From the human T2T-CHM13v2.0 reference genome, Homo sapiens: a stretch of 64,000 nt of DNA. Position numbers and translations under genes: made by a program. Where the stretch lies: the NCBI RefSeq assembly GCF_009914755.1, contig NC_060930.1, one strand, 5' to 3'. The stretch's first letter is position 1; each line of letters begins with the position of its first letter. Of this stretch, positions 4,788-62,310 are shown piece by piece. The notes under the pieces were generated by a model. The model was not told where the DNA came from, searched no databases, and was given only the letters and a program-made list of their open reading frames with translations.

Positions 4788-5259
4788 ACCAAGTTGCTGC
4801 TATGAAAAGGGATTTGAAAATTCCCAGAGGAGCCTTTCAGCCTCTTTCCATGGCTCTTTATGCCCTTTCAAAGGCACAGCCAGAGACATCAGAAATGAAA
4901 TTGTATATAATTATATGGACTTTTCGACAATCATTGAAATTTTTGTAAGTGCCAGTTATATTTTGGCAACCCCATCAAAGCCAGGTGTGCCCAGGGCAGT
5001 CAGCTCAGGCCCTGGCCTCTCATTCAGGTTGGATTCTATAAGAACCGCATTCGCGGTGAGAATTCTAGAGCCAGATCTTGCTGCTCCACAATTGCCTCAC
5101 GTTGCAAGACAAGCAAATCTAGCCTGAGTCTGTGGATTCCAGGGCTGCTTAGGAGGAACCTGCATTCCCGCGTGGATGACCTCAGGCTCCGCCCCTTCTG
5201 CCCCACTCAGCCCTCACCCAGTGCCTGAGAGCGCTCAATCAGAATGCGAGAGCAGCGCG

Positions 5260-5279
5260 GCGGCGCCCCCGTGTGGCCA
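5260..5279 (-). promoter_or_regulatory. CTCF core motif, reverse orientation
   Basis: Minus strand reads TGGCCACACGGGGGCGCCGC, a close match to the CTCF consensus TGGCCACCAGGGGGCGCT. Binding is inferred, not shown. Confidence 0.7.
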
Positions 5280-5937
5280 CAGGGACGAGGACAGAGGACC
5301 GGACCCCGCTCCCCTTTCTCACCAACCAGGACCTCCGAGGCTCTCCCTCTGCTCCCAGCACCTGGACAGGGCTCTGCACTCAAGGAGCCTCCGGGTCTCA
5401 AGTCAGGCTCTGAGTCCATTCAGCTTCCCAAAATCCATGTTGACAATGACATTTCCTCTCACCACTGAGTGACTGGACTTTTGCCTCAGAGCAGAGAGAG
5501 GCCTCCAGGGCAAAACAGTGGGATCAGATGTGGGGATGACACACCCCCAAATCCTTGCTGCCACAGGACCCAGTCCCTCAGCCTCCAGATGGGGCCTTGG
5601 CCTCCCGTCCCCTCCTTTGTTCCTGCTGCTAGAGGCTGCTCATCCCAGGAATCAGCCTGTTAGCCTCCAACCCTGGGGTCCAGGGACAGCAGCTCCTAGT
5701 GCCTCGGTCCAGGAAGAAGGGAACCTCCAGAGAGCAGAAGAGAGAAGAAATGGATCATAAGAGAAGGGGGCAAGGGGGGAGAAAGAGAGTGAAAGGAGCC
5801 AGGGAGGAGAGAAAAATGGAAAACATCCTGTTAGGAATGTGTGTGTTTGTGTTGATGTGTGTGCGTGCAGGTGTGTGTAGAGTGGGAGAGAGTTTCTAGG
5901 GTTCTGAGGAGAAGAGAGCTGCTATACAGGTGCTAAG

Positions 5938-6040
5938 GGGCCCAGCCCTGGGAATTTCAGGGTCCCGCTTTCTGAGCTAGGATCTTAAGGCCCTATCAGA
6001 GTCCACCCCCAGGAAGCCTGCAGTCATAGCACTGGGCTAG
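5938..6040 (+). repeat. 103-bp direct repeat, copy 2
   Basis: About 90% identical to 4685-4787 by hand count. Confidence 0.95.
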
Positions 6041-6469
6041 CTGGACGGCTGCCTCTTCTTTGCCTTTGACAGCAGGAGCTGCCATGCCAGGCCCAGGGGC
6101 CCTGGGGTCATGGGCAGAGAGCAGGTCCCTCTGCTGGCAGCCAAGGAGATGTTGTTCTTGGAGGGTCAAAGACTTACTTAGCTGGGAGTCTGAAGGTGGT
6201 CATGGGTTACAAAGGGGTTACAAAGAGCTCAGCGGTGAGCCTGGCCCAAGCTTCTGACCCCTTTCTTTGGATCTCAAGGGCTGACCATGGATTCTCAATG
6301 GATCTCAAGAATTCGCCCATTTACCTCTTGCCCCAGACCCTCCCCACTTCGATACCCTGGGACCCAGGCATCTGCCTCTTTCCTTCTCCTCCGGCCTCCC
6401 AAGCACCTCCAGGCCCTGCTCTCTGCCAACCTGAACTCCAGGACCCTGCAGCCCCACCCCAAAATTGCT

Positions 6470-7292
6470 TGATAATACAGTGATTCTATTTTCAGTGTTT
6501 TGAAAACTCTGTATACTGTTTTTTACAGTTGCTGTACTAGTTTTACACACTGTGTGTAAGAGTGCCCTTTTCTCCACATCCTCACAAACATCTATTTGTT
6601 TGTTTGTTTTTTTTTGTCTTTTTAGTTGTACCCATTCTATCTGGGGGTAAGATGATATCTCATTGTGGTTTTGATTTGCATTTCCCTGATGATAAGTGAT
6701 GTTGAGCATTTTTCATGTACCTGCTGGCCATTTGTATGTCTTCTTTTGAGAAATGTCTATTCATGTCGTTTGTCCACTTTTTAATAGAATTTTTTGGTTT
6801 TTTTAGCTCTTGAGTTCCTTACATATTCTGGATATTAGTCCCTTGTCAGATAAATTGTTTGAAAATATTTTCTCCCATTCAACAGGTTGTCTGTCTACTC
6901 TTTTGATGGTTTTCTTTGCTGCGCAGAAGCGTTTTAGTTTATTATAGTCCCATTTGTCTATTTTGTTTGGGTTGTCTGTGCTTCTGAAGTCTTAGCCATA
7001 AAATCGTTACCCAGACCAATGTCCTAGAATGTTTCTCATATGTTTGCTTCCAGTTGTTTTATAGTTTTGGGTCTTACGTCTAAGTATTTAATCCATCTTG
7101 AGTTGATATTTATATAGGGTGAGATATAGGGATCTAATTCCATTCTTCTGCATGTGGATATCCAATTTCCCCAGCACCATTTATTGAAGAGGGTGTCCTT
7201 TCCCCAAATGTATGTTCTTGGCACCTTTGTCAAGAATCAGTTGGCTGTAAATATATGGATTTATTTCCAGATTCTCTATTATGCTGCATTGA
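6470..7292 (-). mobile_element. L1 (L1PB/L1MA-age) ORF2 3' fragment
   Basis: Minus-strand ORFs with ORF2p C-terminal motifs ([26 protein letters not shown]). Confidence 0.9.
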
Positions 7293-7302
7293 TTGACATG
7301 TG

Positions 7303-7424
7303 TTTGTAGAGACGAGGTCTCAGTATGTTTCCCAGGCTGGTCTAGAACCTCTGGGCTCAAGTGGTTCACCCTCCTTGGCCTCCCAAAGTGCTGGGATTAC
7401 AGGAGTGAGCCACAGTACCTGGCC
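7303..7424 (-). mobile_element. Alu monomer (FLAM_C or AluJ left arm)
   Basis: tttgtagagacgaggtctc...ctgggctcaagt...gggattacaggagtgagccacagtacctggcc. Confidence 0.85.
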
Positions 7425-7747
7425 TTTGTGCTGTGTTTTGATTCATCGTTATCTCCTAAGCCCTTTCCCAGCATTGATATTTTACTAAACACCCTATGAT
7501 TAAATTATATCTCTACACCTTGAGATAAACAAAAAATTATATAAGCGGTAAAGACAAATATGAAAAAATAAAACTACTACCAATGTTATTAGGAGGATAA
7601 CCTTAAAACATTTGAGCAAGAAAATTTTTCTTTTTTTCTTTTTTCTTTTTTTTTAGCTGTACCTGCTGGAATGGAAAATATTTCTTAAATGAGACAAATA
7701 TATGAAAGTGAAAATGCTTAAACTTCAAAGGACTTACATTACATATA

Positions 7748-8842
7748 TAGTCATTCTTTCTTAATGATAAGATAGGTTCTGAGAAATGTGTCCTTAGGTG
7801 ATTTGGTCTTACGTGAACATCATAAAGTGTCCATACACAAAGCTAGATGATATAGCCTACTGCACACCTACGCTATATCATAAAGCCTATTGCTCCTAGG
7901 CTACAAACTTGGATAGCACATTACTATACTGAGTACTGTAGGCAATTGTAACACAATGGTAGGTATTTGTGGATCTAAACATATGTAAACAGAAAAAGTA
8001 CAGTAAAAATATGGTAAAAAGATTTTTACAATGGCACACCTATATAGGTTACTCATCATGAATGGAGCTTACAGGACTGGAAGTTGCTCTGGGTGAGTCA
8101 GCAAGTGAGTGGTGAGTGAACTGAAGGCCTAGGCCATTACTGTGCACTACTGTAGATTTTATAAATGCTGTACACTTAGGTTACACTAAATTGATTTTAA
8201 AAATAATTTTCTTTCTTTAATAATAAATTAACCTTAGCTTAATGTAACTTTTTTAACTTTATAAACTTTAATTTTTAAAACTTTTCAGCTTTTGTAATAG
8301 CACTTAGCTTAAAAGACCAACATGTTACAAAGCTGTACAAAAATATTGTTCCTTATATTTTCATTCTAGAAACTTATTTCTATTTAATTTTTTTTTTACT
8401 TTTAAATCTTTTCTGTTAAAAAAAAAAGACATAAATTAGCCTAGGCTGACACAGGGTTAGGATCAACAATATCACTATCTTTAGCCTTTACATCTTGTCC
8501 CACTGGAAGATTTTCAGGTGTAATAACATGCATGGAGCTGCCATCTCCTATGATAACAATGCCTTCTTCTGGAATACCTCCTAAAGGACCTGGCCGAGGC
8601 TGTTTCAAGTTTTTTTAATAATTAGAAGGAGCACACTCTAAAATAACAATAAAAAGTATAGTAAATATGTAAACCAGTAACATAGTCATTTATTATCATT
8701 ATCAAGGATTATGTATTGTACATAACTGTATGTGCTAGACTTTTATAGGATTGACAGTGCAGTAGGTTTGTTTACACCAGCATCACCACAAACATATCAT
8801 TAATGCATTGTACTATGATGTACAGTGTCACCTACAATGTCA

Positions 8843-8845
<3 letters not shown>
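7748..8845 (+). mobile_element. Tigger3b-like TcMar DNA transposon, one end deleted
   Basis: Starts tagtcattctttcttaatgataagataggttctgagaaatg, then gcctattgctcctaggctacaaac. Stops abruptly at ctacaatgtcacta. Confidence 0.8.
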
Positions 8846-13150
<4,305 letters not shown>

Positions 13151-13260
13151 ACAATGATGGTGCACCCCGTCTCCATGGGGACAGAGGGTCGTGTGCTCAG
13201 AGTGCTTCCAGATGTCGCCTCCTGCACTTCATCTGCCTGCTCATTTGTATCCTTTACAAC

Positions 13261-13605: not shown

Positions 13606-13609
13606 AAAC

Positions 13610-22782: not shown

Positions 22783-22922
22783 ACTTGTAAATTACTACAA
22801 AACTGTCAACACTTAGCCACTTCTGCTTCCTCAGGAAGGTCGGGGCAGCAGATCTGTGTGTTAAATATCTATGTGAAGTTATTTCCAGGAAGAAGTTTCA
22901 TCTGTGGTTTCTTCTTCCCCAG

Positions 22923-23177
22923 GTCCCACAGTCTTCATTACAACCTCACGGTGCTGTCCCAGGATGGATTTGTATAGTCAGGGTTTCTCGCTGAGGGACA
23001 TCTGGATGGTCAGCCGTTCCTGCTCTATGACAGACAGAAAGGCAGGGCAGGGGCCCTGTGGACAGTTGGCAGAAGCAGTCCTGGGAGCTGAGACCTGGGA
23101 CACAGAGACCGAGGACTTGACAGAGAATGGGCAGGACCTCAGGAGGACCCTGACTCATATCAAGGGCCAGAAAGGAG
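22923..23177 (+). pseudogene. MICC: MIC exon 2 (alpha1 domain)
   Basis: cccag|gtcccacagtctt acceptor. Reads [37 protein letters not shown] with TAG at 22975-22977. Extra G in the run at ~23050, then [27 protein letters not shown]. Donor gag|gtgaga. Confidence 0.92.
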
Positions 23178-23443
23178 GTGAGAGTCGGCAGGGGCAAGAG
23201 TAATGGCAGAGGCCTTCTCCAGGAGAGTTGGAGGCAGAGAGCAGGGACCTGTCTCTTCCCACTGGATCTGGCTGAGGGTGGGCTGAGAAATAGGGGTCAG
23301 TGGGGCTCAGCAGGGAGGTGAGCCGGCACTCAGCCCACACAGGGAGACATGGAGGAGGGCCAGGGAGGGGTCCCAGCTGGGCTGAGTTCCTCACTTGGGT
23401 GGGAAGATGAGGGGTTCAGGAATGAACTGCTGGGTGGGGGCAG

Positions 23444-23729
23444 GCTTGCATTCCCTCCAGGAGATTAGGGTCTGTGAGATCCATGAAGACAGCAGCACCA
23501 GAGGCTCCCGGCATTTCTACTATGATGGGGAGCTCTTCCTCTCCCAAAACCTGGAGACTCAGGAATGGACAGTGCCCCAGTCCTCCAGAGCTCAGACCTT
23601 AGCTATGAATATCAGAAATTTCTGGGATGAAGATGCCACACAGGCCAAGACACTTTCACCCTGTGATGGCAGACCGTCTGCAGAAACTACAGTAACATCT
23701 CGAATCCTAGGAGGGCATCAGGAGAACAG
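23444..23729 (+). pseudogene. MICC: MIC exon 3 (alpha2 domain)
   Basis: [56 protein letters not shown] ~2-nt deletion near 23653 is followed by TAA/TAG in the ancestral frame and loss of the second Cys. Donor acag|gtac. Confidence 0.93.
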
Positions 23730-24330
23730 GTACCGACCCTGGGCAGGGGCTTTCCTCTCCCCCATTTCACTAGAGTCACTCCCCTGCCAGCTCTGTCCTG
23801 GGAAACCCTCTCTGTGCTATGGATGCAGGCGTTTCCTGTTGGCGTATTGTGTCCTGACTTTCCTCTCTTGTTAGAGCCACTGGATAAAGACAGTGGGTTG
23901 GGGACTGAACCATCCAGTGTTGTAATCTGGGAAAGCAATGGCCCACTCCCAACAGAATCCTCACCCTGGGGTGGGTGTTAGGCAGGAGAGGAAGCCCTCA
24001 GGGCTAGGGCTGCCCCCTCTGCCTCCCAGCCTGCCCATCCCAGAGAGTTCCCTCCTGGCCTCATGACCCAGGAGTCCAATCCTGACATCCCTCCCCTTCA
24101 GCATCAATGTGGGGATCTCAGAGCCTGAGGCCATAGTCTGAGGCCCATCCTCCTGCCAGCCCAAAGGAATTGGGCCCCAGGGTAAGGACAGACTTGCAAA
24201 AGATCCGGGGTCCATGAGGGCTTCAGCCAGAGTGAGAACACTGGAGAGGAGCAGCCCTGTTCCCTGAGTCTCCCTTAGAGGGAGCGGGGCTTGGCCATGT
24301 GCCTCACTGGCTCTGCCCTTTCCTATCCAG

Positions 24331-24601
24331 TGCCTACCATGGTGAATGCCAGGCCTCAGAGAACAAAGTCACCCCCACATGCTGGGCTTCCGGCTTCTAT
24401 CCCCAGAATATCTCTCTGGCCTGGTGTCAGGTTGGGGCATTTTCTGAGCCAGGATGCCCATCGGTCTGTGGGTGTCCTGCCCAATGGGAATGGGACCTAC
24501 CAGACCTGGGTGGCCACTAAGATTCCCCAAGAAGAGGAGCAGAGGGCTACCTGCTATGTGGGACACAGCAGGAATCACAGCACTTACCCTGGTGTCCTCT
24601 G
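24331..24601 (+). pseudogene. MICC: MIC exon 4 (alpha3 Ig-C1 domain)
   Basis: [22 protein letters not shown] and [39 protein letters not shown], spread over shifting frames. ccag|tg acceptor and ctg|gtgag donor. Confidence 0.92.
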
Positions 24602-24717
24602 GTGAGCCTGGGGCGACCCTCAAGTGTTCTGACCTAGAAAGGGTCAGGCCAAGGTGGGCACAGCAGAGATAACTGGAACTCTGAGTGCCCAGTGTGCAAC
24701 AAGGCCCTTTTTTTCAG

Positions 24718-24848
24718 GGAAAGCCCTGATGCTTCAGAGTCTATGGCAACCGTTCCGTATGTTGCGGCTGCTGCTGTTTTTGTTATCATTATTATTATTC
24801 TCTGTGTCCTTTGGTGCAAGAAGAAAATATCAGCTGCAGAGGACCCAG
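24718..24848 (+). pseudogene. MICC: MIC exon 5 (transmembrane)
   Basis: GKALMLQSLWQPF, a frameshift, then YVAAAAVFVIIIIILCVLWCKKKISAAEDP. ttttcag|gg acceptor and ccag|gtgaa donor. Confidence 0.92.
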
Positions 24849-27415
24849 GTGAAAAAAGGGGGCAGTGGCTGGAGATGGGAGGGACCCTGTCTGGGCAGTA
24901 GGGTCCCCTCATAGCTCCTGCACAGACAGGCATGTAGGTGACAGGGCTTTGGAACAGGGTTTGGAAGTTGGGGTATTTGGGAGGGGAATAGGAGCTACAA
25001 TTTCATCTAGACCCCTAAGTCCTGCCCAAGCCAGGGCCAGGCCAAAGCCCTCGAATGTCCATCTGTGGCCTCCTCTTGCTGCAGGTGAGGAGTGGGCAGC
25101 AAGGAGGGCCGTGGCACCTGCTCTGTCCTCATCCCCATCCCTCTGTCTCTCAGGCTCACCAGCGTGCATCAGCGTGGGGTGAGCTGGGAATCATGTGCTG
25201 ATTGCTGAGGGCCTGGATGATGATGGCTTCAGAGGGGGCAAATAGTAAAGACGGCTGTGATCTGGGGAGGGCTAGAAACTGGAGAGGAATATGAGGAGAG
25301 GTGGTGCCTCTAGTCCCTTCCTCTCTGCATCCCCCTCCCCTGTTTCTCCAGCCATCAGGAGGACACCAAGAAAAAGACCTATGAGGCCCAGACTGGGGGG
25401 CCTGCCTGTGCAGCCCCTTGGAGACCCCCTTGTAACAGGGAGGGTTCTGAGTGCACACAGCCATCTTTGTCCACTTTGTAGCTCCCCACGCGCCTCCTCC
25501 AGGAGCTGTCTCGGGGGTGTCGTGTCTCCTGGATCACTCGAGGCCATGCTCTTTCCAGGTTCCCACCACATGGCCCTGCACCCTGAGTTCCCTTGCAGAT
25601 AATATGGATGAGAAGATACGCAGATGTCTCTGGGCCATTTGGGGAGTGGTGACCAGCCCCTTGTCAGGGCAGCTGTCATCCCTGTTTTCATCCTACTTCT
25701 AGGTGTTTCCTTGTCCAGGCCCTGAAGGACACAGTCCCTCAGGGACACAGTGCTCAGGGACCATGTTTTTTGGGCTTTGTTCTGTGCTCTGTGGCCTCAC
25801 CTTGCCCTCCCTGAGCCTTTCTCAAGGTGGTCACTTTCCTGTAAATTTGGAGTAAAGGATGGTCAGGATGATTTCCCCCACAGTCAGTTGTTTGAGGGGA
25901 AAGTAAAAGAGAAAACAGGAAGTTTTGTGTTTCTGCAAAGACAGAGGCAGTGCAGGGGACAGTGAGAGGCTGGGTGTCCAGGAAACTGGAGTCTTTCTGC
26001 CATTTCCCCACTTTTTTGCACCTGGTGGTGGGGGTGGGGGTTTTTCATCCTTGAACCTAATTGCACTGTCTGTTGGCCCCTCAGTCCTGGGCAGATGGGA
26101 AGGTTCATCCCCTGCCCTGCAGCAAGAGGGCCCCGTCCAGGAGGCACCCACAGCAGGGGCAGTGCAGGTTTGTGGTCGCTCCTGCTTTCACCTGCACTGT
26201 CTCCTATAGAGGGGTTGTCACTTCTGGGTCCCCGTGGGCAGGAAAGTTTGCCTTGTAGGTCACGGGGCATTGGCCAGGGAAAGGGTGTGAAAGTCATGTG
26301 CTAATTTCTCAAAAATTCTCCTTTAAATATTGATGTCCAATAAAGATGTTCACAATTTCCGCTGGATAATCTTAATAGGATTTCCTCTAATATTGATGTT
26401 GTAAAGCATGTACAATCAAATGAGAAGTCAAGCTTGGAGCTTCCTCTCCAGGAGGGTCCATGTTGGAGATGGTGGTTGTGGCAGTGGCAATCCTGGAGTG
26501 CAGAGGGTGGGTGGAGGCAGCCTCAGGCTGAGGGGTCTCCAGAAACCCCCTGCTCCACAGGGAGAAGAAGAAGATTCCCTGTGGGCTGTGAGGGCAGTGG
26601 CCTGGGTGGAAGCCCTGCTAGGAACAGGGCAGGAAGGTCTTGCAGCCTCAGCAAGCAGCAGCCCTGGGGTGGAGGTGCATTTCCAGGGGTGAGTGGACCA
26701 GGCAGGAGCAAGGATGGCCCAAGTGCAGGTCACGGACCCGGGTGGGTGCTGAGGGTCTGGAAAGGTTGGGTGTCCTCAAGCGTGGAGGGTCCCAGGATCC
26801 AGTCAGGTGCAGACCCGGTGGCAGCCACGTGTTTTTGTGCCGAGCCCCCAGGCTTCTTGATGGGCTCTGCAGTTAGGGGCTGGCTGCTCAGGGCTCGGAG
26901 GGTGGAACGCTGAGCTGCAGGTGGAGCGGGGAGCCCAGTGTGCAGGGTCTGCCCTGTTGTGCAAGTGCCTCTGTAGGTGAGGAGGGCCTGGGGACTGAGA
27001 GGGAGAAGGACCGCGTGCGTGACCCAGCCCAGGCCTGGTAGGACACGGAGCTAGGACCATCCTCTCTTTGGGGAGGTTTCCCACTGTGTCTAGGCTGGTG
27101 GGGCTTGGGAGGAGGGGAGGGCCCCGGGTTCCCTCCTGGATCTGATTCTTGTCCTTTAGTCATGAGGCCCTTTCATTCCCCACATGGTGGATGGTGGGCA
27201 CAGGGCAGGTATCATTGTTGAGGGAATCACAGGAGGAGACTGGTGGAGGCTGGAGAAACTAGGATGGGAGGGAGGAAAAAGTGGGGGCGTCAGTTCTTCC
27301 CTCAGAGAAAGGGTGAATCTGATTTCGGAGTTTCTGAGGAGGGAGAAATCCTCAGGGAATGAAAAGCAGCACTCTGCACCCAGTGGAGCATTTACTGTTT
27401 CTCTCTTTTCTCCAG

Positions 27416-27576
27416 AGCACATGAGCCTACGAAGCCCAGATCAACACCTGGTTGGGACAGGAGACCACCAGGGCACCATACAGCTGGAATTTCAGTCTCT
27501 GGTGCCAGCTCCTGGGTCTGCTGGCTCCACTGGATTCAACTCCCTACCCAGGTCTCACCAGCACTTTCCCTCTTGA
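27416..27576 (+). pseudogene. MICC: MIC exon 6 (cytoplasmic tail) running into 3'UTR-derived sequence
   Basis: ctcttttctccag|agcac acceptor. EHMSLRSPDQHLVGTGDHQGTIQLEFQSLVPAPGSAGST resembles the MICA/B tail ELVSLQVLDQHPVGT...GSTGST. Confidence 0.88.
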
Positions 27577-28618
27577 TGCCTCAGTTTCCTCATATATTAA
27601 ATGGGAAACTAACAGCACTTATTTCTTGTGGTCAGGGATTGACAACTGTTAGTTGCTATGAGGTGTTTGCAGCTGTGCCATAATATTCGGTATTATTATT
27701 TTTGTTGTTTTGTTATTATCTTATTAACTTTTATTATCTTTTAATGTATTGTATGTGCAGTAATTACATGCACAAAAGCACATATGTGCCTTTAAACACA
27801 TTGTATGTGCATAAAAGCTTTATGAGTGTGTGTCCTGTTGACGGTTCCTCCTGGCAAGCCTGGGACCAGCCTTTTTGGCACCTTGAGGTCCCCTCACCCT
27901 TCGCACACTGTTATAAATTACCCCATGTCTACTATGTCTGCATAATTTTATACTGTGGATTTTTACTCTTTAAATAGACATTTCTGGCCTGTGCTTTATT
28001 TCATGCATCTGGGAAGAGTAGAATACAAGGTTCAGGGGAAAAGGAGAGGTCTGTCTCAATGCCTTGACACAGCATGAAGAAATCTCTCCCTCTTCCTACC
28101 TCTCCCTGCCAGTTCCCAGTGATTGACAGATTCACAGCAAAACAGAAAAGGAAAGGTTGGGGGTGGGGGTGCACATCTGGGGCCAAAATTCAGGGGCTGA
28201 CTCTGGGGGAACATCTGCCCTGAAGAGTTGGATCCTTCATGTGATGATGTTGAGCTGAAGTGTAATATCAGAGATGGGGGCAGAGAGGGCTTTGAGTTTC
28301 CCTGGTATTGAAGAATAGGAGTCAGACTGCTTCTGGGGTGAAGCGACTGCTGGGAACATGTGAACCAAATTGATGAAGAATAAGTGAATGGGGAATGTGG
28401 GTGAGTAAAGCAAGCATCAGCAGTCAGTTTCTGCCATCAGTTCAGGCTGATCGGGGTAGGGAGGTGGGGAGATGGATATTCCCCACCCTGTTGCTCAATC
28501 CTTCCTGACTGCTGGGTGCACCAAAATCTCAGAAATCACCACTAAAGAATTAATTCAGGTAACCAAACACCACCCACCCCTAAAAACCTTGAAATAAAAA
28601 ATAATTTTTTAAAAAAGT

Positions 28619-28917
28619 GGCCGGGCACGGTGGCTCACGCCTGTAATCCCAGCACTTCGGGAGGCCAAGGCGGGCAGATCATGAGGTCAGGAGTTCAAGA
28701 CCAGCCTGATCAACATGGTGAAACCCCATCTCTACTAAAACGACAAAAATTAGCTGGGCATGGTGGCACATGTCTGTAATCCCAGCTACTCAGGAGGCTG
28801 AGGCAGGCGATTCTCCTGAACCTGGGAGGCGGAGTTTTCAGTGAGCCGAGATCGCACCACTGCAGTCCAGCCTGGGTGACAAAGCAAGTCTCCATCTCAA
28901 AAAAAAAAAAAAAAAAA
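28619..28917 (+). mobile_element. AluS inserted at the tail of a short L1PB-like 3' end (~28510-28615)
   Basis: Full Alu dimer with polyA, preceded by caccaaaatctcagaaatcaccactaaagaa. Confidence 0.93.
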
Positions 28918-30241
28918 GGAATGATATTGGATATCCTTATTTTGTCCCCAACACAGAGGAGTAGTTTTCAATATTTTTCTCATTAATTTTGACTTTAGAT
29001 AGAGGTATTTCTTTTTTATAAATAACTTTATTAGCTTAAGGAAGTTCTCTTTTATTTCTGGTTTATTGAGTTTTTATAATGAATAGTTGTTGAATTTTAT
29101 CAAATGATTCTCATGCATCTGTTGACATAACTGCACGTTTTTCTACCTTTTTCTATTCATGTGGTAAATTACTCTGATTTTTTAAAGTCACATTTCTCTT
29201 ATAAATCCCATTCAGTCCCATTGTACATTATCCTCTCCATATATTACTTGCTTCTATTTTCTAATATTTTAGATGGAATTTTGGTGGCTGTGTTCATCAG
29301 TTCATTCAGATGGTGGATATCTTTTTTGTAATGTCATTGTCATGTTTAAGTTCTTCTCTGGGCTATGTTGTCTCATAAAATTAGTTGGAAGGTGTTTACT
29401 CTTTTTTTATTATCTAAAAGAATATATGATAGTCTGCCCTCCATGTCTGTGTGTTTCACATCTGTGAATTTAACTACCTGAGGATCGAAACTGTTGTTGC
29501 TGCTGATGTATACTATGTAGTTAGGCCTACCTACAGCGGTTACATCTGTACTGAAGATATATAGACTTTTTCTTATCATTATTTCCTAAACAATATAGTA
29601 TAACAACTATTTGCGAATAATTTACATTGAATTAGGTATTAGTAATCTATAGGTGATTTAAAGTATATGGGAGGATGTGCATAGGTAATAAGCAAATACT
29701 AGACCATTTTATACATGGGACCTGAGCATTCATAGATTTTGGTATCCACAGGGGGCCCTAGATCCCATCCCAAAAGGATACCAAGAGATGACTGAATAAG
29801 ACTGACTTTTTTAAAAAAAGTTTTGGAAGAATTGACAGGGGAAAAAACGTGGGCAAAGAGTGTTTTTGGTGGGAAAGAATTTAATTAGAATCCCATTTCT
29901 TAATGGATATAGGACTACTTATATTTTCTATTCAGTTTTCTGTTGGCTTGTTCAATTGTCGTTTTCAAGAACTCATTTCATTGCACCTAAATTTTAAAAG
30001 GTATTGTCAGGAAGTTGTGTCTAATATTCTCTTATTTTCATTTTAATAAAATATACGGTTTTATGTTGTTCTTTATAGTGTTCATTTCTGTTTTCTCTCT
30101 TTTTATGATTGATCTTTCTGGGGATTTTGAAATAGTTTGCCCATCTTTCCCTCTATTTTCCTTAACATATTAATCATAAATACTTTGAGAATGTTCTTGC
30201 TTGCCTGCTTCAATATCCACATCAACTCTTAGCCTGATTTT

Positions 30242-30634
30242 TTTTATTATACTTTAAGTTTTAGCGTACATGTGCACAACATGCAAGTTAGTTACATATG
30301 TATGCATGTGCCATGTTGGTGTGCTGCACCCATTAACTCGTCATTTAACATTAGGTATATCTCCTAATGCTATCCCTCCCCACTTCCCCCACCCCACAAC
30401 AGTCCCCGGTGTGTGATGTTCCCCTTCCTGTGTCCACGTGTTCTCATTGTTCAATTCCCACCTATGAGTGAGAACACGAGGTGTTTGGTTTTTTCTCCTT
30501 GCGATAGTTTGCTGAGAATGATGGTTTCCAGTTTCATCCATGTCCCTACAAAGGACATGAACTCATCATTTTTTATGGCTGCATAGTATGATAGACTGGA
30601 TTAAGAAAATGTGGTACATATACACCATGGAATA
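30242..30634 (-). mobile_element. 5'-truncated L1PA with a 5' inversion (twin priming)
   Basis: Minus-strand 3' end to ~30588, then a ~46-nt piece in the opposite orientation. TSD cttagcctgatttt (from 30228) / cttagtctgatttt (from 30635). Confidence 0.9.
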
Positions 30635-30833
30635 CTTAGTCTGATTTTATCTCTACTTGTTGCATTTTCTCTGCTGCTTGGCATGCCACATATTCTGGAT
30701 GATGTGTTATAGAGGCTCTGGATTTTGCCATCTTCCTCCACAGACTGCTAACAATTTGATAGTTCATTAATTATAAAAGAATTACCTTTGGTAAAAATCG
30801 GACCCACTTTGATTCTGCTTAGGCTTGATTTTA

Positions 30834-32119
<1,286 letters not shown>

Positions 32120-33568
32120 AGGCTTGATTTTAGACTTTGCTACTTTGCTATTTCAGTGTGGTACTTACTCCAAGGCCACGGCCCTCACTCATAGTGCTTC
32201 ACCATCCTCATGTCTCAACCCGGGTTTGGCTGGGCTAAATTAATTCCAATATCTCCTCACACTATGAAGCCTTTGGCATTTCTACATAGCATGCAATCCC
32301 CAAGCAGCTGTTCTCTGGTGGGCTTCTTACAGTATCACCTGGAGCATATGCAGCTTTGGAGTGCAGATTTTGGGAGTTTCTTCGCTGTAGCTCCCTCCTT
32401 CAGCACCCTACCCTTAAATCCCAGTCAAAGTGCCAAGCCTGAACTCTGATCTCTGATTCCTTTGCTACTGAGATTGATTCTCTCTGCTTGGGTTCCATTT
32501 CCCTTCATTGAATTTTGAAAAAAATCCTCTTAGAAAGAAAGCTGATGAGGATGTGAGTCTCTCTTTCAGGGACTCCATTCCCTGGAGGGTGATAGTCCTG
32601 CTCTGGCTGCTGTTTTGCAGCTGCACAACTGCATCGTGTTTTGTCTGGCTTTTATACTTGTTTACAGTGGGAGGATGAGTTTTAAATGAGCTAGTCTATC
32701 ACAGTTCAAGTCAGAAGACCTCTAATCCTTCAATAGTCATTGCATTTGAAAATCTGAATAGGGTAATTTGACAATTCACAGGCAAAGTTAATATGTTATA
32801 TCTTAGTGCCCAGTTGAAACCTCAATTTCATCTTTAACAACCTTATACACACAAAATACACACACACACACACACACATCACTGTGTTATACAGTCATGC
32901 ACTGCTTAATGATGTTTCTGTCAATGATTGATCACGTATACGACTGTCATCCTATTAAACGGAGCTGAAAAATTCCTATCACCTAGTGACATTGTAGCCA
33001 TTGTAATGTCATAACACAATGCATTAATCATGTGCTTGTGGTGATGCTGATGTAAATAAACCTACTGCACTGCCAATCCTATAAAAGTCTACCCCATACA
33101 GTTAAAAACAGCATGTAATACTTGATGATAATAAATATGTTACTGGTTTATGTATTTACTATACTTTTTATGGTGATTTTAGAGTGTGCTCTAATTATTT
33201 TTTAAGTTAAATTAAAACAGCGTCAGGCAGGTCCTTTAGGAGGTATTCCAGAAGAAGGCATTGTTATCACAGGAGATGACAGTTCCATGCTTGTTATTAC
33301 CTGTGAAATAACAGTGGGACAAGATGTGAAGGCTGAAGTTGGTGATATTGTTGATCCTGACCCTGTGTCAGCCTAGGCTAATGTATGTCTTTGTTTTTAC
33401 CAAAAAAGATTAAAAGGTTAAAAAATTAAGTAGAAATAGTTTCTAGAATGAGAATATAAGGAAAAATATTTTTGTATAGCTGAATAATGTGCTGGTGTTT
33501 TAAGCTAAGTGCTATTACAAAATAGTTGAATTTTTTAAAAAATTAAGGTTTATAAATATGAAAAAGTT

Positions 33569-36500: not shown

Positions 36501-37280
36501 GCAGCCAACAAACATATGAGAAAAGTTGAACATCACTGATAATTAGAGAAATGCAAATAAAAACCACAATGAGATACCAGAGTGGCTATTAATAAGTCAA
36601 AAAACAAGAGATGCTGGTGAAGTCACAGAGAAAAAGCAATGCTTTCACACTGTTGGTGGAAATGTAAATTCGTTCAACCATTGTGGAAGACAGTGTGGTG
36701 ATTCCTCAAAAACCTAGAGGCAGAAATTGACCTAGCAATCTCATTACTGGATACATACCCAAAGGAATATAAATCATTCTATTATAAAGATATATACACG
36801 CATATGTTCATTGCAGCACTATTCACAATAGCAAAGACATGGAATCAACATAAATGCCCATCAATGATAGACTGGATAAAGAAAATGTGGTACATATACA
36901 ACATGGAATGCGATGCAGCCACATAAAGGAATAAGACCATGTCCTTTGCAGGGACATGAATGGAGTGGGAAGCCATTATCCTCAGCAAACTGACCCAGGA
37001 ACAGAAAACAAAACACCATGTGTTCTCACTTATAAGTGGGAGCTGAATGATGACAACACATGGATACATGGGGGAGAACAACACACACTGGGGTCTGTTA
37101 GAGGGCATGGGGCTGGGGGAGGGAAGCACCAGGAAGAATAGCCAATGGATGTTGGCCTTAATACCTAGGTGATGGGACGATCTCTGCAGCAAACCACCAT
37201 GGCACACATTTACCTACGTAACAAACCTGCACATTCTGTACATGTACCCCTGAACTTAAAAAAAGGGTGGAGAAAAAAAG
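33569..37280 (+). mobile_element. Older 5'-truncated L1PA (ORF2 to 3'UTR), disrupted
   Basis: ORF2p fragments ([24 protein letters not shown] and [18 protein letters not shown]), a 3'UTR and an A-rich tail. Confidence 0.92.
35462..35754 (-). mobile_element. AluS nested in L1
   Basis: Reverse Alu flanked by gaaaaaaaaacactattttt-like duplicated sequence. Confidence 0.93.
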
Positions 37281-37528
37281 ATTAAAAAGTTACAGTAAGC
37301 TAAGATTAATTTATTATTAAAGAAAGAAAATGATTTTTAAAATTAATTTAGTGTAGCCTAAATGTACAGTGTTTATAAAGTCTAAGTAGTGTATAGTAAT
37401 GCCCTAGACTTCACATTCACTCGCCACTCACTGACACCCAGAGCAATTTCCAGTCCTGTAAGCTCCATTCATGGTAAGTGCTCTAGACAAATGTGCCAGT
37501 TTTTAAAAAATCTTTTAACCACATTTTT

Positions 37529-38230
37529 GTGGCAAAATTTTGTGGGAAAATTCAAAGTCTTTTTTCTACTGTTCTTACACCCCAACAACTATCAACACAG
37601 AAGGCTTCTGCGATGAAATGTAGGGGATTTCTCCCCAAAAACAAGCAAACAATTGGTTCTGTTATGGACGCCAGCTGGGTATCCTCTAACTCAATTCTGA
37701 CACTATCTCCCTGGAGATAATTTTAGATCCCGCAAGTTGATGGCTCAGTCCTCACGACTGTCACCCTCTCACTTCTGATGACAATCTCAAGCCCCAGATT
37801 ATTTTGCCTGTGTTGCTAACTCACTGACTATAAATCAGGGTTCCCAAAACCCACCCTCAGGTTTGATTGATTTGCTAGAATGGCTCATAGCATGCCAGGA
37901 AACACTTACATACATTAACCAGTTTATTTAAAAGGATATTTTAAAGGATAAAGAGCCACATGAAGAGATAAGAGCCACATGAAGAGATACATAGGGTGAG
38001 GTCTGAAAGGGTCTTGAGTGCAGGAGCTTCTGCCCCATGTGTTTGGGAAGTGCTACCCTCCCTGGCACATGTCTGAGTTATTGTTCACCTTCCTATAAGC
38101 CTCCCTGTGTTCAGCCATACAGAAGCTCTCTGACTCTTCCCTTTTGGGTTTTGATGGAAGCCATATTTCTTAGGCATGATTCATTACATCATGGCCATCA
38201 GCTTAACCTTCAGCCTCTCTTGCCTTCCTG
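37529..38230 (-). mobile_element. MER21-family LTR
   Basis: ggacgccagctgggtatcctctaactcaattctgacactatctccctggagata...gatttgctagaatggctcatag. Contains a 19-bp tandem duplication at 37951-37988. Confidence 0.7.
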
Positions 38231-39521
38231 CCAATGGTATAATCCTATGTCTAAAAAAATCTAAAGATGCCACCAAAAAACAATTAGATCCAATAAATAA
38301 ATTCAGTAAAGTGGCAAGATGCAAAATCAACATGCAAAAATCAATATAATGTCTACACATTAGTAATGAAGTAGCTAAGAAAGAAATTTAAAAGCAGTCC
38401 CATTTATGATAGCGACAAAAACCCCCCAGAAAAACAGGAATAAATTTAAGCAAGGAAATGAACAATCTCTTTACAAAAACCTACACAACACTGGGGAGCA
38501 GTTCCAAGATGGCCAAATAGGAACAGCTCCAGTCTATAGCTCCCAGCGTGAGCCATGCAGAAGATGGGTGATTTCTGCATATCCAACTGAGGTACCAGGG
38601 TCATCTCACTGGGGCTTGTCGGACAGTGGGTGCAGAACAGTGGGTGCAGTGCACCGAGCATAAGCTGAAGCAGGGCAAGGCATCGCCTCACCCAAGAAGC
38701 ACAAGGGGTCAGGAAATTCCTTTTCCTAGCCAAGCAAAGCTGTGACAGACGGCACCTGGAAAATCGGGTAGCTCCCACCCTAATACTGCGCTTCTCCAAT
38801 GGTCTGAGCAAATGGCACACCAGGGGATTATATCCTGCACCTGGCTCGGAGGGTCCCAAGCCCATGGAGCCTCCCTCATTGCTAGCACAGCAGTCTGAGA
38901 TCAAACTGCAAGGTGGCAGCAAGGCTGGGGGAGGGGCGCCCACCATTGCTGAGGCTTGAGTAGGTAAACAAAGCGACCGGGAAGCTTGAACTGGGTGGAA
39001 CCAACTGCAGCTCAAGGAGGCCTGCCTGCCTCTGTAGACTCCACCGCTGGAGGCAGGGCATAGCCGAACAAAAGGCAGTAGAAACCTCTGCAGACTTAAA
39101 TGTGCCTGTCTGACAGCTTTGAAGAGGGTAGTGGTTCTTCCGGCATGGAGTTTGAGATCTGAGAATGAACAGACTGCCTCCTCAAGTGGGTCCCTGACCC
39201 CTGAGAAGCCTAACTGGGAGGCATCTCCCTGTAGGGGCAGACTGACACCTCACACGGCCAGGTACCCCTCTGAGACAAAACTTCCACAGGAACGATCAGG
39301 CAGCAACATTTGCTGTTCAGCAATATTCACTGTTCTGCAGCCTCTGCTGCTGATACCCAGGCAAACAGGGTCTGGAGTGGACCTCCAGCAAACTCCAACA
39401 GACCTGCAGCTGAGGGTCCTGACTGTTAGAAGGAAAACTAACAAACAGAAAGAACATCCACACCAAAACCCCATCTGTACGTCACCATCATCAAAGACCA
39501 AAGGTAGATAAAACCACAAAG

Positions 39522-59000: not shown

Positions 59001-59279
59001 CTGATGAGCTGAGACTGACCGGGGAACTGTGATCTCGGATGTGGTTGAGGATCAAAATCAAAATTATAGTCGACTCTTAAAGACCAAGTAGGCTCTAACC
59101 ACGGAATTCCTCTCTACCCACTGATTCCCCCAAAAGAGGAAGAAGCCTCTTCTCTAAGTACACTAAGCTGAAAAACTAAGCTGAAGTACTAAGTACATTC
59201 AGCTTTCACTAAGCTGAAACAGCAAAGCGCTGAAACAGCAAACCGCAGGCATAACAGAAAAACCTCAACTTAAATAGTG

Positions 59280-60150
59280 CTGAGCTGCAACTTGTTTTCC
59301 GCGGCTTGTAGTCGAGGAGGAGCCCACGAGGCTTTAGCTGCTGCAAGATCCAAGCGCGCTCCCGCCCAGCGGTGGCCCCGGGCTCAGGGAACCAGCGCTG
59401 CTTCTCTCCGAGGCTCGCGGCCTGAGAAACCTTCCGCTCCGAATGCGGGCTGGCCTCTCCGGGAAGCCTTGAAACTCAACTCCTGGGTGGGCCAGGAAGG
59501 TTGTCCGAGTTGGGCAGCGCCGGCCGGGGCCCCCCTCAGAGCCGAGCTGCTCGCCTCCCTCGAGACCCAGCGCAGCCTGGAGGAGAGACCGGGTCCTCTC
59601 AGGTGGGGCACTTGGTGACTAGAGACCCCATGAGCCCCCACCCTCCAGCCTGGGGCGGGATAGCCCAATCGGATGCTGGGGGGTCCGTTTGGAAACCACT
59701 CTCTGCTTTGAGGACACGCGCGGAGCTTCCCTGGGAGCAGGAGGCTCTGAAGGAAGAGGGGCAGACGCGAAGCCTCTGGCCAGCCGCGCCTCCGGTCCAG
59801 GCCTCCCTGTGTCCACATCAGGTCTCCCGGCTTTTCACAACAGTGACCTTGACAGCGCCCAGAGTCCGCGGCTTCCATCCAGTCCCCTCTTCCCCTGCGA
59901 GGCCGAGAGGGTGCAGAGCTGGTGGCTTCAGGAGGTGGCTGTGAGCGCGGGTCTGGGGCCAAGAGCAGAGGACAGGAGAAGACTGCCAAGCCACCACCGG
60001 TCCTGCGACATATTCACCAGCTGCCGGCGGCGAGGTCAGACCCCAGATTCGGGTTTGCCCAGCAGGCGCTCGGCTTCCATGCTCGCTCTCCACCTCCCTG
60101 CCTCTCTTAAGGAGGACCTGGCCCATTAGGAAGCCCGGGGCGTTCTGTGG
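59280..60150. promoter_or_regulatory. CpG-island-like region with no recognisable gene
   Basis: High GC, many intact CpG/CGCG/CCGG sites, and a GC box ggggcggg (~59652) next to ccaat (~59665). Confidence 0.7.
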
Positions 60151-61049
60151 ACTGGGTGGTCAAAAATGGTGTGTGGAGGAGGGAGTCAATTGAGATTAGA
60201 CGTGAAAAACGGGGAACCTGGGGACCGCAGGTTGGGGCCCAGGAGAGGACCGAAGCTTCCATCCAAGACTAAGTGAGGAACACTGCGGCAAGAGGAAGGA
60301 AGATTGAGTCGCAGTTGACTTGTGGATTTTATCGGTTTTAGTCCCTGTGTGACCGCCAGAAGTCTGCAGCTTTATCCTTGATGAGTTCTGAAGGCCCCTG
60401 AGGAGAGCTGAGCCCAAGAGACTTTTTAATTCCACGGAGGTACTTCGCCTGAGGCAGGTCTCTTCTGTGCCCAGGGAAGGAAGGCTGGGAGTGAGGGTAT
60501 CTGAAAATATTCACATGAGAAAAGGTCAAGTCCATTTTTGCTATCCTGTACTGAACACAGATCAATTAACTGGTCCCAGGATTGATAGCAACAGGCCTAT
60601 AACTGGTCTCCTGGTTCCTATCCAGCCCTTCCCCCATAAAGTCAGAATCCTGTCTTCTTGGAACAGTGAATCCCCAGCAGAGGACCTCAGCCTGGGCTGC
60701 CTGGAACCTGCTACCCTGCCCAGGAGCTGTCAACACCTGGAGCGCAGTGCAGGAAGAATGCAGGGGCGCTTGGTGGGGAGGTGAGTGAGTGCAGAGGGTC
60801 TCCGGGAACTCCTTGGGCCTTTGGGGTAGCTCCCTCTCAGACTGTCCTGCAGGTCCTTACAAGGCCCACTACTGAGCAGGAAGAATGTCCCCAGGAGAGG
60901 CAAAGGGTGGGGCAAAGGCGGGTATGGGGTCGCTTGCACTTTGCAGCAAACTGGAGAGTGAGATGACAGGCAAGGAGTACTGGCCCTCACATGGAAACCT
61001 ATATCACACTGCCCAAAGGGAATAGGAAAGGAACCACAGCGAGGTCCAC

Positions 61050-62310
61050 AGGGGAGGGCTGGGGGAAGCCTTACCCAGGGCGGCGAGTGCAGCCTCAGTG
61101 GCAGAAATCCCAGCGGGCCCCCTCCTGCTGCAGACCCCGCTCCTCCTGCGAGGCCCCAGACGAAGCCCGACCCCCAGCTGCCTGCGCAGCCTCCAGGCAG
61201 GGGTCGCGGGGTGCTTCGACGAGAGAGTCTGGACCAAAGCGCCAAAATCCGCCGCTGTCGCTCAGCCGCAGCCTGTTTGGGGCTGGGGAGCCTCTCCTGG
61301 TCGGTGATCGTCGCGGACAATAGACGAGACCAGAAATTAGATTTGGTTCCGGGATCAAGAACCTTTAATCAGGGAATGGAGATGGCAGGGGACGAGGCCT
61401 AAGAGATGTAGACAGCAGGTCCTGTCTGCTTAGGTCGCAAAGGGGAAGAAGGGGCGGGACTCGGGGTCCTGGACTGGGGCTGGGAAGGGTCCGCTCCAGG
61501 AGGGTGTGGGTTCCGATGCCTGGGTCCTGGAGGTCCGGGGAGTCGCGGAGGGACCTCCCTCCGGTAACCGACGGATTGGGGACAAATGCTCTGCCCAGTC
61601 TGATCCCAGACATCCTTGTAACCCAATATAGTTACAGCTCCGACGCCATGTTCTTCCTGGGTCCAGCTCCAACGCCATGTCCTTCCTGGGTCCCTCCAAA
61701 GTAGGGTTGGAGGATCAACTAGTGGATTCCGGCGAGGAGGTATCTTCCTCCCTGGAAGCAGCAGAACAAATTTCAGGGACTCGGGAGTCCAAGGCCTCAT
61801 TCCAAAAACACTGAGAGATTGGGTACTGGGCGCACAGTATGTCTGTGGGGTCACGCAGACCTGGGAACCAGATCTTAGGGCCTGCAGACCTCCCTCTGCC
61901 TTGAGATCAGACTCCACCGCCAGTAACTGGGAGGAAACATCTGTACTCCAGGATTTAGAGACACCGACACGGGAGCAGGGCGCCCCCGTGTGCACAGAGC
62001 CCTGTTCTGCAGCTGGAAACCGAACGGGACCCTGTGGAAGTCGCGGGTGGGGAAGCGAAAGGGGAGCTGAGCGTCTGTCCTCAGTCCTTGGGCCACACGG
62101 GGGCGCTGCCGCTCTGCGCTCGGATTCTGATGAGCCGCTCTGGAGAGGATGGGGCGGTGGTCTGAGTAAGACACAGATTGTTGATCCAGAAAGGATGTAT
62201 CAATGAGGTGGGGCTGGGGTTGTCCAGGGAGTGGAAAGGCCTTCTGAGAAGCCCTGGACTGCGCGGGGTTCCGGCTCTGCGGAACAGAGGAGGGCTCTGG
62301 AGCGGCCTGT
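61050..62310. promoter_or_regulatory. Second CpG-rich region, containing two CTCF-like motifs
   Basis: Dense CpG. Motifs at 61977-61995 (-, GTGCACACGGGGGCGCCCT) and 62091-62109 (+, GGCCACACGGGGGCGCTGC). Confidence 0.7.
62091..62109 (+). promoter_or_regulatory. CTCF core motif, forward orientation
   Basis: GGCCACACGGGGGCGCTGC, the paralog of the 5260-5279 motif. Confidence 0.72.

What the first reader, a model, noticed from the sequence alone, without database searches (positions are those of the whole stretch)
5135..62260. The window is a hidden collinear inverted duplication with the MIC pseudogene between the arms
Seen: three blocks on the left recur as reverse complements on the right, in mirror order. 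They are the GC-rich block 5135-6460 vs 61450-62260, Tigger3b 7748-8845 vs 32984-37525, and old-L1/MER2 8843-10125 vs 29398-32390. Established: the MHC class I region grew by duplication of MIC/HLA-containing units. Inference: two MIC-flank duplicons face each other here. The right arm was later inflated by L1 and other insertions, while the left arm is compact. The blocks differ in divergence (roughly 80-90% vs roughly 65-70% by eye), so two events or CpG decay are also possible.
Basis: partly seen in the sequence, partly recalled or inferred. Interest (0 to 1): 0.8.

Follow-up and report, generated by a model that had tools for sequence, protein, structure and literature searches.

The report
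Old inverted MIC-flank copies around MICC
Two short stretches on either side of the MICC pseudogene are real, old, mirror-image copies of a piece of DNA that also lies between MICA and MICB, but the wider "whole-window" mirror duplication is a patchwork of events of different ages and is an ordinary relic of how the MHC class I region grew.

Summary
All three block pairs exist at almost exactly the stated coordinates, inverted and in mirror order.

- **Blocks 2 and 3.** Left 8005-10121 matches right 37528-29406 at about 86% identity over 2081 three-way sites. They are true paralogues, not independent repeat insertions. They share low-copy DNA and 25 derived substitutions. A third copy lies between the two beta-block MIC genes on chr6 at 31.30 Mb.
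- **Three-way split.** The three copies form an unresolved trichotomy, with K2P about 0.10-0.21 per block. This is close to the 83-85% identity between MICC and MICA/MICB.
- **Right arm.** It spans 28910-38493, abuts the MICC 3' flank and is inflated by L1 and Alu insertions. The left arm is compacted by deletions.
- **GC-rich pair.** It is homologous (nhmmer E 5e-34) but only 64-65% identical (K about 0.5). In a five-copy tree the two blocks fall in different clades. The right block's nearest relative is a direct copy 28.4 kb downstream, near HLA-E.
- **A further ancient pair.** 32-2121 against 50862-49070 is also inverted but breaks mirror order.

The evidence points to at least two layers rather than one hidden palindrome. 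About 3 kb of the left side is alignable to the right. This is an ordinary relic of MHC duplicons and of low interest.

The parts
2716..13149 (+). Left MIC-flank duplicon segment ('S_L'), collinear in direct orientation with chr6:31295155-31314278 between the two beta-block MIC copies
   Evidence: ten collinear plus-strand HSPs at 77-87% identity, running from c3 154<->2716 to c3 19278<->13149.
8005..10121 (+). Left arm: the part of S_L that aligns to the right arm. 8005-8845 is a Tigger-like dispersed repeat. 8846-10121 is mostly low-copy DNA plus a roughly 260-bp dispersed repeat at 9729-9991.
22823..28494 (+). MICC pseudogene unit and its 3' flank, homologous in direct or consistent orientation to five or more other MIC loci on chr6
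   Evidence: 81-85% to 31358619, 31266332, 29834262 and 29615644; flank homology reaches query 3695, which is window 28494.
28617..28918 (+). Alu sitting on the junction between the MICC 3' flank and the inverted right arm. It obscures the breakpoint.
   Evidence: Alu-type hits at query 3793-4125. (sequence with poly-A end).
28910..38493 (-). Right arm ('S_R'): an inverted partial copy equivalent to c3 5353-12783. Homologous pieces are 28910-29433, 29406-30250, 30644-30833, 32120-32390, 32391-32983, 32984-33568, 37277-37528 and 37562-38493.
   Evidence: (six collinear minus-strand HSPs to c3, 74.5-84.7%)..
33569..37276 (.). 3.7-kb compound L1 and Alu insertion inside the Tigger-like part of the right arm only, with a probable 15-bp target-site duplication (12 of 15 bases identical)
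   Evidence: the flanking HSPs overlap at left 8246-8260. (junction sequences).
30251..30643 (.). Young L1 3'-end fragment inserted in the right arm only
   Evidence: 86% to 44637-44295. (92.9% to the L1 in c3).
30834..32119 (.). Young L1 3'-end fragment inserted in the right arm only
   Evidence: 89.8% to 44664-43385. (95.0% to the L1 in c3 at 8352-9421).
5132..6460 (+). Left GC-rich block ('type 1'). Close paralogues lie at 31.297 Mb (c3) and 29.577 Mb.
61373..62264 (-). Right GC-rich block ('type 2'). It is an ancient inverted homologue of the left block (64-65%). It is part of a direct duplication, 61041-64000+, with a copy 28.4 kb downstream.

Best explanation
The window holds relics of the MHC class I duplicon burst, in at least two age layers.

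Layer 1 (per-block K2P about 0.10-0.21; about 14-15% raw difference over all blocks). A MIC-flanking segment S carried, in order: a GC-rich block, an old L1 fragment, a Tigger-like element, low-copy DNA and more. It was copied three times at about the same time as the MICC/MICA/MICB units split. The copies are:
- S_L, upstream of MICC, direct.
- S_C, between the two beta-block MIC genes, direct.
- S_R, a partial copy (about 7.4 kb-equivalent) joined in inverted orientation directly to the end of the MICC 3' flank.

Afterwards S_R took up two young L1 3' ends and a 3.7-kb L1 and Alu insertion. S_L lost several pieces: a 593-bp low-copy piece at 8843/8845, about 2 kb at 7301/7303 and about 5 kb after 10121.

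Layer 2 (K about 0.5). The GC-rich block at 61.4-62.3 kb is a much older homologue of the left GC block. It belongs to another lineage that was later duplicated in tandem towards HLA-E.

The arms are now too diverged and too broken up to act as recombination substrates, so the structure is a fossil and not a working element.

Shown: homology, shared descent, relative ages and insertion/deletion differences. Inferred: the mechanism (unequal crossing-over or an inverted duplication in an early primate) and absolute dates.
For: 1. Not independent repeat insertions.
- Left 8846-9728 and 9992-10121 matched only the right arm and the 31.30 Mb copy among the 40 scored of 3278 candidates. The other 37 of 42 rows fell within query 874-1226.
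- The 593-bp piece 32391-32983 matched over its full length only the 31.30 Mb copy (82%). The other 38 of 40 rows fell within query 443-593.

2. Shared descent in the Tigger-like part.
- L, R and C3 share 25 identical derived sites against the majority of 25 dispersed copies, over 669 usable sites. Random triplets of dispersed copies share 0.76 on average.
- An IQ-TREE clade (L, R, C3) has UFBoot 100 and stem length 0.061.
- Arm-to-arm identity is about 86%, against 77-79% to dispersed copies.

3. Trichotomy.
- Over 2081 three-way sites, the odd-one-out counts are C 156, R 134 and L 133 (chi-square p 0.30).
- Polarised pair-sharing counts are RC 9, LC 8 and LR 5.

4. MIC-flank context.

5. Two layers.
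- The five-copy GC-block tree gives a between-clade K of 0.47-0.51 against 0.105-0.17 within clades, with bootstrap 100.
- L to C3 is the same in the GC block (0.164) as in the arms (0.15-0.21).

6. The longest exact L/R match is 48 bp.
Against: - Mirror order of the GC block and the inner arms does hold. So does a chain through c3 (c3 2754-12783 <-> 62276-28910). One large old inverted unit with later homogenisation of the inner part is therefore not excluded.
- Blocks B3 and B4 (8843-9275) show L and R closer to each other (K 0.10-0.11) than either is to C3 (0.16-0.20). This hints at local gene conversion or an L-R sister relation.
- The tree weakly prefers (R, C3) instead (UFBoot 81).
- R and C3 also share three pieces that L lacks, and both have an L1 poly-A junction within about 3 bp of the same site.
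- Genome searches scored only 40 of thousands of candidates, so 'only three copies' is a lower bound.
- No outgroup species could be examined.
- Repeat family names could not be tested.
Confidence: 0.8

Rival explanations
1. One reading: one large collinear inverted duplication spans about 5.1-62.3 kb, with MICC in the spacer. The GC-rich ends simply decayed faster (CpG decay) and the right arm was stretched by insertions.
For: All three block pairs are inverted and in mirror order. The chain through the 31.30 Mb copy is also monotonic. GC-rich DNA does evolve somewhat faster.
Against: - In the same GC-rich block, L-C3 and L-29.58 Mb have K 0.135-0.17, the same as the inner arms. L-R has K 0.47-0.58.
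- The right GC block has a closer direct-oriented relative 28.4 kb downstream (82-90%).
- About 17 kb (44.8-61.4 kb) has no counterpart.
- The L1 match 6464-7294 <-> 44126-43296 is repeat against repeat. The left L1 piece is equally like 36579-35935 (73.5% against 72.7%). It also overlaps by 268 bp what R already holds at 38226-38493.
- Block 32-2121 <-> 50862-49070 breaks mirror order.
Confidence: 0.07
2. An ancient inverted duplication (K about 0.5) created both arms including the GC blocks. Later the inner part of the right arm was overwritten by gene conversion from a MIC-flank copy at the time of the MIC duplicon burst.
For: Mirror order of old and young blocks. A local excess of L=R sites in 8843-9275 shows that exchange between arms is conceivable.
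Against: - It needs a conversion tract of 7 kb or more that ends inside repeat insertions.
- R carries pieces that L lacks but C3 has (593 bp, 932 bp and 524 bp), so the donor could not be today's L.
- It has no support beyond order and orientation, and two blocks agree in these by chance about one time in four (my estimate).
Confidence: 0.1
3. No duplication at all: the arms are independent insertions of the same transposons (Tigger-like, L1/MER) that happen to face each other.
For: - 8005-8845 and 9729-9991 are dispersed repeats.
- Arm-to-arm identity (about 86%) is not higher than each arm's identity to the family majority (L 89.4%, R 87.0%, derived from the counts).
Against: - Independent copies would be about 78% alike, as the arms are to the other dispersed copies scored (39 of 46 rows, 77-80%).
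- 25 shared derived sites against 0.76 expected, and a clade with UFBoot 100.
- Low-copy DNA and the same order of five blocks are shared in three MHC loci.
Confidence: 0.01

Closest known systems
MIC-HERV16-HLA class I duplicons of the MHC alpha and beta blocks. Kulski, Gaudieri, Martin and Dawkins 1999, as summarised in PMC6562477 section 2.1, which I read; the 1999 paper itself is not held.
   Same: These are paralogous multi-kb units that carry a MIC gene or pseudogene and shared old retroelements. They were copied within the class I region in an early primate. Identities between copies are about 80-87%. They were later remodelled by L1 and Alu insertions and by deletions.
   Different: Here the copy on the far side of MICC is partial and inverted, and it lies in the kappa block, which those analyses (as summarised) did not cover. 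I did not test for HERV16 or for an HLA class I fragment inside the arms.
Duplicated-and-inverted class I units in Old World monkeys (MHC-A/AG with W-like genes; Kulski et al. 2004, as cited in a passage of PMC12674619 that I read)
   Same: An MHC class I duplicon copied in inverted orientation next to its source.
   Different: That case involves functional class I genes and a different block, lineage and age. Here only non-coding flank DNA is mirrored.
Inverted segmental duplications that drive recurrent inversions by non-allelic homologous recombination. Porubsky et al. 2022 is only cited in PMC9772353; I did not read it.
   Same: Two inverted homologous arms flank a roughly 19-kb spacer that holds a gene-like unit.
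   Different: Those arms are long and at least 90-95% identical (recalled definition). Here identity is about 86%, the arms are broken by insertions, and the longest exact match is 48 bp. The left-arm homology to the 31.30 Mb copy continues into the spacer in the same orientation (10379-13149), so the spacer has not been flipped since the copies split.

Membership tests
MHC class I MIC-containing duplicon | Paralogy of the flank with the flank of other MIC loci in the class I region | tested here: met
   Window 2716-13149 (+) and 28910-38493 (-) both align to chr6:31295001-31315000, which lies between the MIC hits at 31266332 and 31358619.
MHC class I MIC-containing duplicon | A MIC gene or pseudogene in the unit | tested here: met
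   MICC unit 22823-28494 is 81-85% identical to four other MIC loci. Only one MIC copy is present: no inverted MIC remnant was found beside the right arm.
MHC class I MIC-containing duplicon | HERV16 and an HLA class I segment in the unit (the tripartite duplicon of PMC6562477 section 2.1) | not tested
   No repeat library was available.
Segmental duplication in the usual genome-annotation sense (at least 1 kb and at least 90% identity; recalled definition) | At least 90% identity over at least 1 kb | tested here: not met
   The arms are 83-88% by BLAST and 86.1% over 2081 sites. This may be why the pair is 'hidden' from standard tracks (inference).
Inverted repeat competent for NAHR-mediated inversion | Long, uninterrupted, near-identical arms | tested here: not met
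   The longest exact match is 48 bp. The right arm is split into at least six pieces by insertions.
Independent insertions of one transposon family (null model) | Homology confined to the element, and copies no more alike than random family members | tested here: not met
   as set out under Best explanation.
Single-event inverted duplication (palindrome with spacer) | All blocks of the two arms have the same divergence and are each other's closest relatives | tested here: not met
   Inner arms have K 0.10-0.18. GC blocks have K 0.47-0.58 and fall in different clades.

The most novel reading that the evidence does not exclude
The kappa block began as a tail-to-tail inverted duplication of an S-MIC unit (S_L-MICC> <MIC'-S_R). 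The second MIC copy and the inner flank were then deleted, leaving S_R fused to the MICC 3' flank.

This would explain why MICC lies on the same strand as HLA-E (hub annotation). A review states that all MIC loci are opposite to the class I genes (passage in PMC9772353).

A side possibility concerns the roughly 145-bp core of the GC blocks. Its between-clade identity is 0.77-0.79, against 0.49-0.72 in the rest of the shared alignment. It carries a CTCF-like motif at 5262-5276 (-) and 62093-62107 (+). It may be a conserved regulatory element kept in five MHC paralogues.
Probability: 0.15. Interest if true: 0.4.

Novelty: new member of a known kind. Interest (0 to 1): 0.25.

Why it matters
The result adds a small piece to the duplication history of the least-studied class I block (kappa: HLA-E, MICC).

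- It shows a third, inverted copy of the segment between MICA and MICB, joined to the MICC 3' flank.
- It shows that at least two age layers of duplicon remnants lie side by side.
- It is a worked example of a flawed test. 'Arm-to-arm identity against identity to the repeat consensus' can wrongly reject a real old duplication. Shared derived sites and shared low-copy DNA are the valid test.

It has no evident functional consequence.

Tried and rejected
- **Single Tigger element.** I first suspected that 8005-10121 was one long Tigger element present twice by chance. I rejected this. Only 8005-8845 and 9729-9991 are dispersed, and no terminal inverted repeats frame the stretch.
- **Wasted search.** A genome search with 10336-22900 was swamped by a THE1/MaLR-like element (15320-16908, LTR copies at 16555-16908 and 22410-22782). 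It gave no paralogue information.
- **Shared L1 insertion.** I asked whether the L1 at the same site in R and in the 31.30 Mb copy is a shared insertion that would make them sisters. I rejected this.
  - The c3 L1 is 95% identical to another young L1.
  - The HSP that spans R's L1 and the adjoining Tigger piece is only 74.5% identical to c3.
  - The lengths differ, and only R has a 15-bp target-site duplication.
- **Flipped spacer.** NAHR-mediated flipping of the MICC spacer is rejected. Left homology to c3 runs on into the spacer in the same orientation.
- **CTCF loop.** The two motif matches have 2 mismatches each. Such matches number 17 in the window against 6.1 expected from shuffles. The pair is divergent, not convergent. 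This is weak.
- **Region fetch.** Only 31 kb was fetched.
- **Literature.**
  - Two full-text searches returned 11 and 43 papers. None of the listed titles or abstract starts concerns an inverted repeat around MICC.
  - I read only passages of three of these papers and one section.
  - Shiina et al. 1999 PNAS is not held. Kulski 1999 and 2002 have no PMC id in the reference list I saw, and I did not try them. Any of these may describe the structure.
Full report
**Observation**

A BLAST of the window against itself gives 105 minus-strand HSPs. The strongest non-L1, non-Alu ones form one anti-diagonal:

| Left | Right | Identity |
|---|---|---|
| 8005-8260 | 37528-37277 | 83.5% |
| 8246-8845 | 33568-32984 | 83.1% |
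| 8843-9113 | 32390-32120 | 87.6% |
| 9101-9275 | 30833-30644 | 83.7% |
| 9274-10121 | 30250-29406 | 84.7% |

For the GC-rich pair, BLAST finds only 5228-5376 against 62141-61995 (74.8%). nhmmer gives 5132-5718 against 62264-61651 (E 5e-34) and 6212-6460 against 61627-61373 (E 1.7e-4). Other GC-rich DNA in the target (59-61 kb, GC 0.55-0.60) gave nothing better than E 0.028.

**Are the inner arms a duplication or two insertions of the same repeats?**

The window's genome could be searched.

- With 8005-10121 as query (40 of 7355 candidates scored, 46 rows), 39 rows are dispersed copies confined to query 1-841 at 77-80%. This first part is a repeat family.
- The second part matched only the right arm and a third locus, chr6:31304419-31306876 (+, 85-87%).
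- With 8846-10121 alone (40 of 3278 scored, 42 rows), 37 rows fall within query 874-1226, a roughly 260-bp repeat. The rest matched only the right arm and the third locus.
- The 593 bp that lie between the two blocks in the right arm (32391-32983) matched over their full length only the third locus (82%). The other 38 of 40 rows lie within query 443-593. The left arm therefore has a deletion at 8843/8845.

In an alignment of the Tigger-like part with 25 dispersed copies (669 usable sites):

- The three MHC copies share 28 sites that depart from the family majority, 25 of them with the same base.
- Random triplets of dispersed copies share 0.76 on average. The maximum of 64 was not traced; it probably comes from the near-identical chr1 copies L010, L011 and L014, which sit on near-zero branches in the tree.
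- IQ-TREE puts the three copies in one clade with UFBoot 100 on a stem of 0.061. Tips are 0.078-0.112.

From the same counts, each arm is 87-89% identical to the family majority but only about 86% identical to the other arm. The proper null for independent copies is about 78%, which is what the arms show to random copies.

**The third copy and the MIC context**

MICC-like sequence occurs at chr6:31358619 and 31266332 (+, 85% and 83%) and at 29834262 and 29615644 (-, 81%). By their order and spacing the first two are the MICB and MICA loci. That naming is my inference from recalled positions.

I fetched chr6:31295001-31315000 ('c3').

- Ten plus-strand HSPs make window 2716-13149 collinear with c3 154-19278 at 77-87%.
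- Six minus-strand HSPs make window 38493-28910 collinear with c3 5353-12783 at 74.5-84.7%.
- The MICC 3' flank is homologous to the flanks of at least five other MIC loci up to window 28494.
- An Alu (28617-28918) covers the junction with the right arm.

The layout is therefore S_L(+), about 10 kb, MICC(+), then S_R(-). S_C(+) lies between the two beta-block MIC genes.

**Relative ages**

- Over 2081 sites present in all three copies, the odd-one-out counts are C3 156, R 134 and L 133 (p 0.30).
- Pairwise identities are 86.1% (L-R), 85.1% (L-C3) and 85.0% (R-C3).
- Polarised pair-sharing counts are RC 9, LC 8 and LR 5.

This is an unresolved three-way split, at a divergence like that of MICC from MICA and MICB (83-85%). 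A review gives 33-44 Myr for MICA and MICB (passage in PMC6562477). Any absolute date for the arms is my inference.

Locally (8843-9275) L and R are closer to each other (K 0.10-0.11) than to C3 (0.16-0.20). This may reflect a short conversion tract.

**Remodelling**

The right arm carries:
- A 3.7-kb L1 and Alu insertion (33569-37276) with a probable 15-bp target-site duplication.
- Two young L1 3' ends, at 30251-30643 and 30834-32119. They are 86-95% identical to other young L1 copies.

The left arm lacks three pieces that R and C3 share:
- The 593-bp piece.
- c3 5353-6278 = 38493-37562, 79%, partly an old dispersed repeat.
- c3 12248-12783 = 29433-28910.

R lacks c3 6278-8040. 'Right inflated, left compact' is correct.

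**The GC-rich pair is a different layer**

The left block has close relatives in c3 (78%) and at chr6:29576811-29577936 (80%). The right block has one close relative, at chr6:30345847-30346599. It is direct, 82%, and 28.4 kb downstream (5 of 5 candidates scored). The direct homology runs from window 61041 to the window's end at 86-90%.

In a five-copy alignment (514 columns shared by all):

| Comparison | K2P |
|---|---|
| Within {L, C3, 29.58 Mb} | 0.135-0.171 |
| Within {R, downstream copy} | 0.105 |
| Between the two groups | 0.47-0.51 (63-65% identity) |

The split has bootstrap 100. L to C3 is thus the same in the GC block as in the arms, while L to R is about three times larger. Composition is the same in both comparisons, so CpG decay does not explain the gap.

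Other observations bear on the wider chain:
- The 17 kb between 44.8 and 61.4 kb has no left counterpart.
- The L1 match 6464-7294 against 44126-43296 is repeat against repeat.
- A further low-copy inverted pair, 32-626 and 1349-2121 against 50862-50232 and 49848-49070 (68-69%), has only 3 of 3 candidates genome-wide. It lies in the wrong order for a mirror.

**Mechanism and function**

The structure is best read as a fossil of the class I duplicon burst, laid next to older duplicon remnants.

- At about 86% identity, with the right arm in at least six pieces and a longest exact match of 48 bp, the arms are poor recombination substrates today.
- The left homology to c3 continues into the spacer (10379-13149) in the same orientation. 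The spacer has therefore not been flipped since the copies split.
- How S_R became inverted cannot be decided here. It could be an inverted duplication with loss of a second MIC, or an inversion of one of two tandem copies. The junction is under an Alu.

**Literature**

The general model of MIC-HERV16-HLA class I duplicons, with duplications, deletions and inversions, is established (PMC6562477 section 2.1, read; passages of PMC9772353).

Two full-text searches returned 11 and 43 papers. None of the listed titles or abstract starts concerns an inverted pair around MICC. I opened only three of these papers by term search. Shiina et al. 1999 is not held. The Kulski 1999 and 2002 papers have no PMC id in the reference list I saw, and I did not try them. 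Any of them may show the structure.

**Verdict**

- This is a new member of a known kind, of low interest.

Noticed in passing
window 61041-64000 (runs off the window end) against L034 4407-7244 (chr6:30345407-30348244): A direct duplication with a 28.4-kb offset, 86-90% identical (K about 0.105 in the GC part). It lies upstream of HLA-E, is younger than the inverted arms, and its full extent is unknown.
   Followed up: partly
window 32-626 and 1349-2121 against 50862-50232 and 49848-49070; third member at chr6:29900280-29900697: A low-copy, MHC-only ancient inverted pair (68-71%; only 3 of 3 candidates genome-wide). Both window copies are interrupted by Alu elements at nearby but not identical points. 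It breaks mirror order with the GC pair.
   Followed up: partly
window 5228-5376 and 61995-62141; also c3 2868-3006, L033, L034: A roughly 145-bp core of the GC blocks is better conserved between the two ancient clades (0.77-0.79 against 0.49-0.72 in the rest of the shared alignment). It holds a CTCF-like motif (2 mismatches to a recalled consensus) at 5262-5276 (-) and 62093-62107 (+). The RefSeq silencer at 4063-4259 lies about 1 kb away.
   Followed up: partly
window 37260-37291 / 33554-33568 and L031 8256-8342 / 9421: Two different L1 3' ends have their poly-A junctions within about 3 bp of the same TTTT/A site of the Tigger-like element. One is an old, longer L1 in the right arm. The other is a young 1.07-kb L1 in the 31.30 Mb copy. 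They look like independent hits on one endonuclease hot spot.
   Followed up: yes
window 22923-24848 and hub annotation of HLA-E (97696-102381): MICC and HLA-E are both on the + strand. A review passage (PMC9772353) says all MIC loci are coded opposite to all HLA class I genes. The kappa block looks like an exception.
   Followed up: no
window 15320-16908 and 22410-22782: A roughly 1.6-kb element with 350-bp LTR-like ends (many genomic copies at 80-86%; THE1/MaLR-like by recall), and an inverted solo LTR just upstream of MICC. The two LTR copies are 68.7% identical.
   Followed up: no
window 4685-4787 and 5938-6040: A 103-bp internal direct repeat (90%) within and just upstream of the left GC-rich block.
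   Followed up: no
loci L010, L011, L014 (chr1:205.4, 121.1 and 143.0 Mb): Three copies of the Tigger-like repeat are nearly identical to each other (branch lengths about 0-0.007). They presumably lie in recent chr1 segmental duplications.
   Followed up: no
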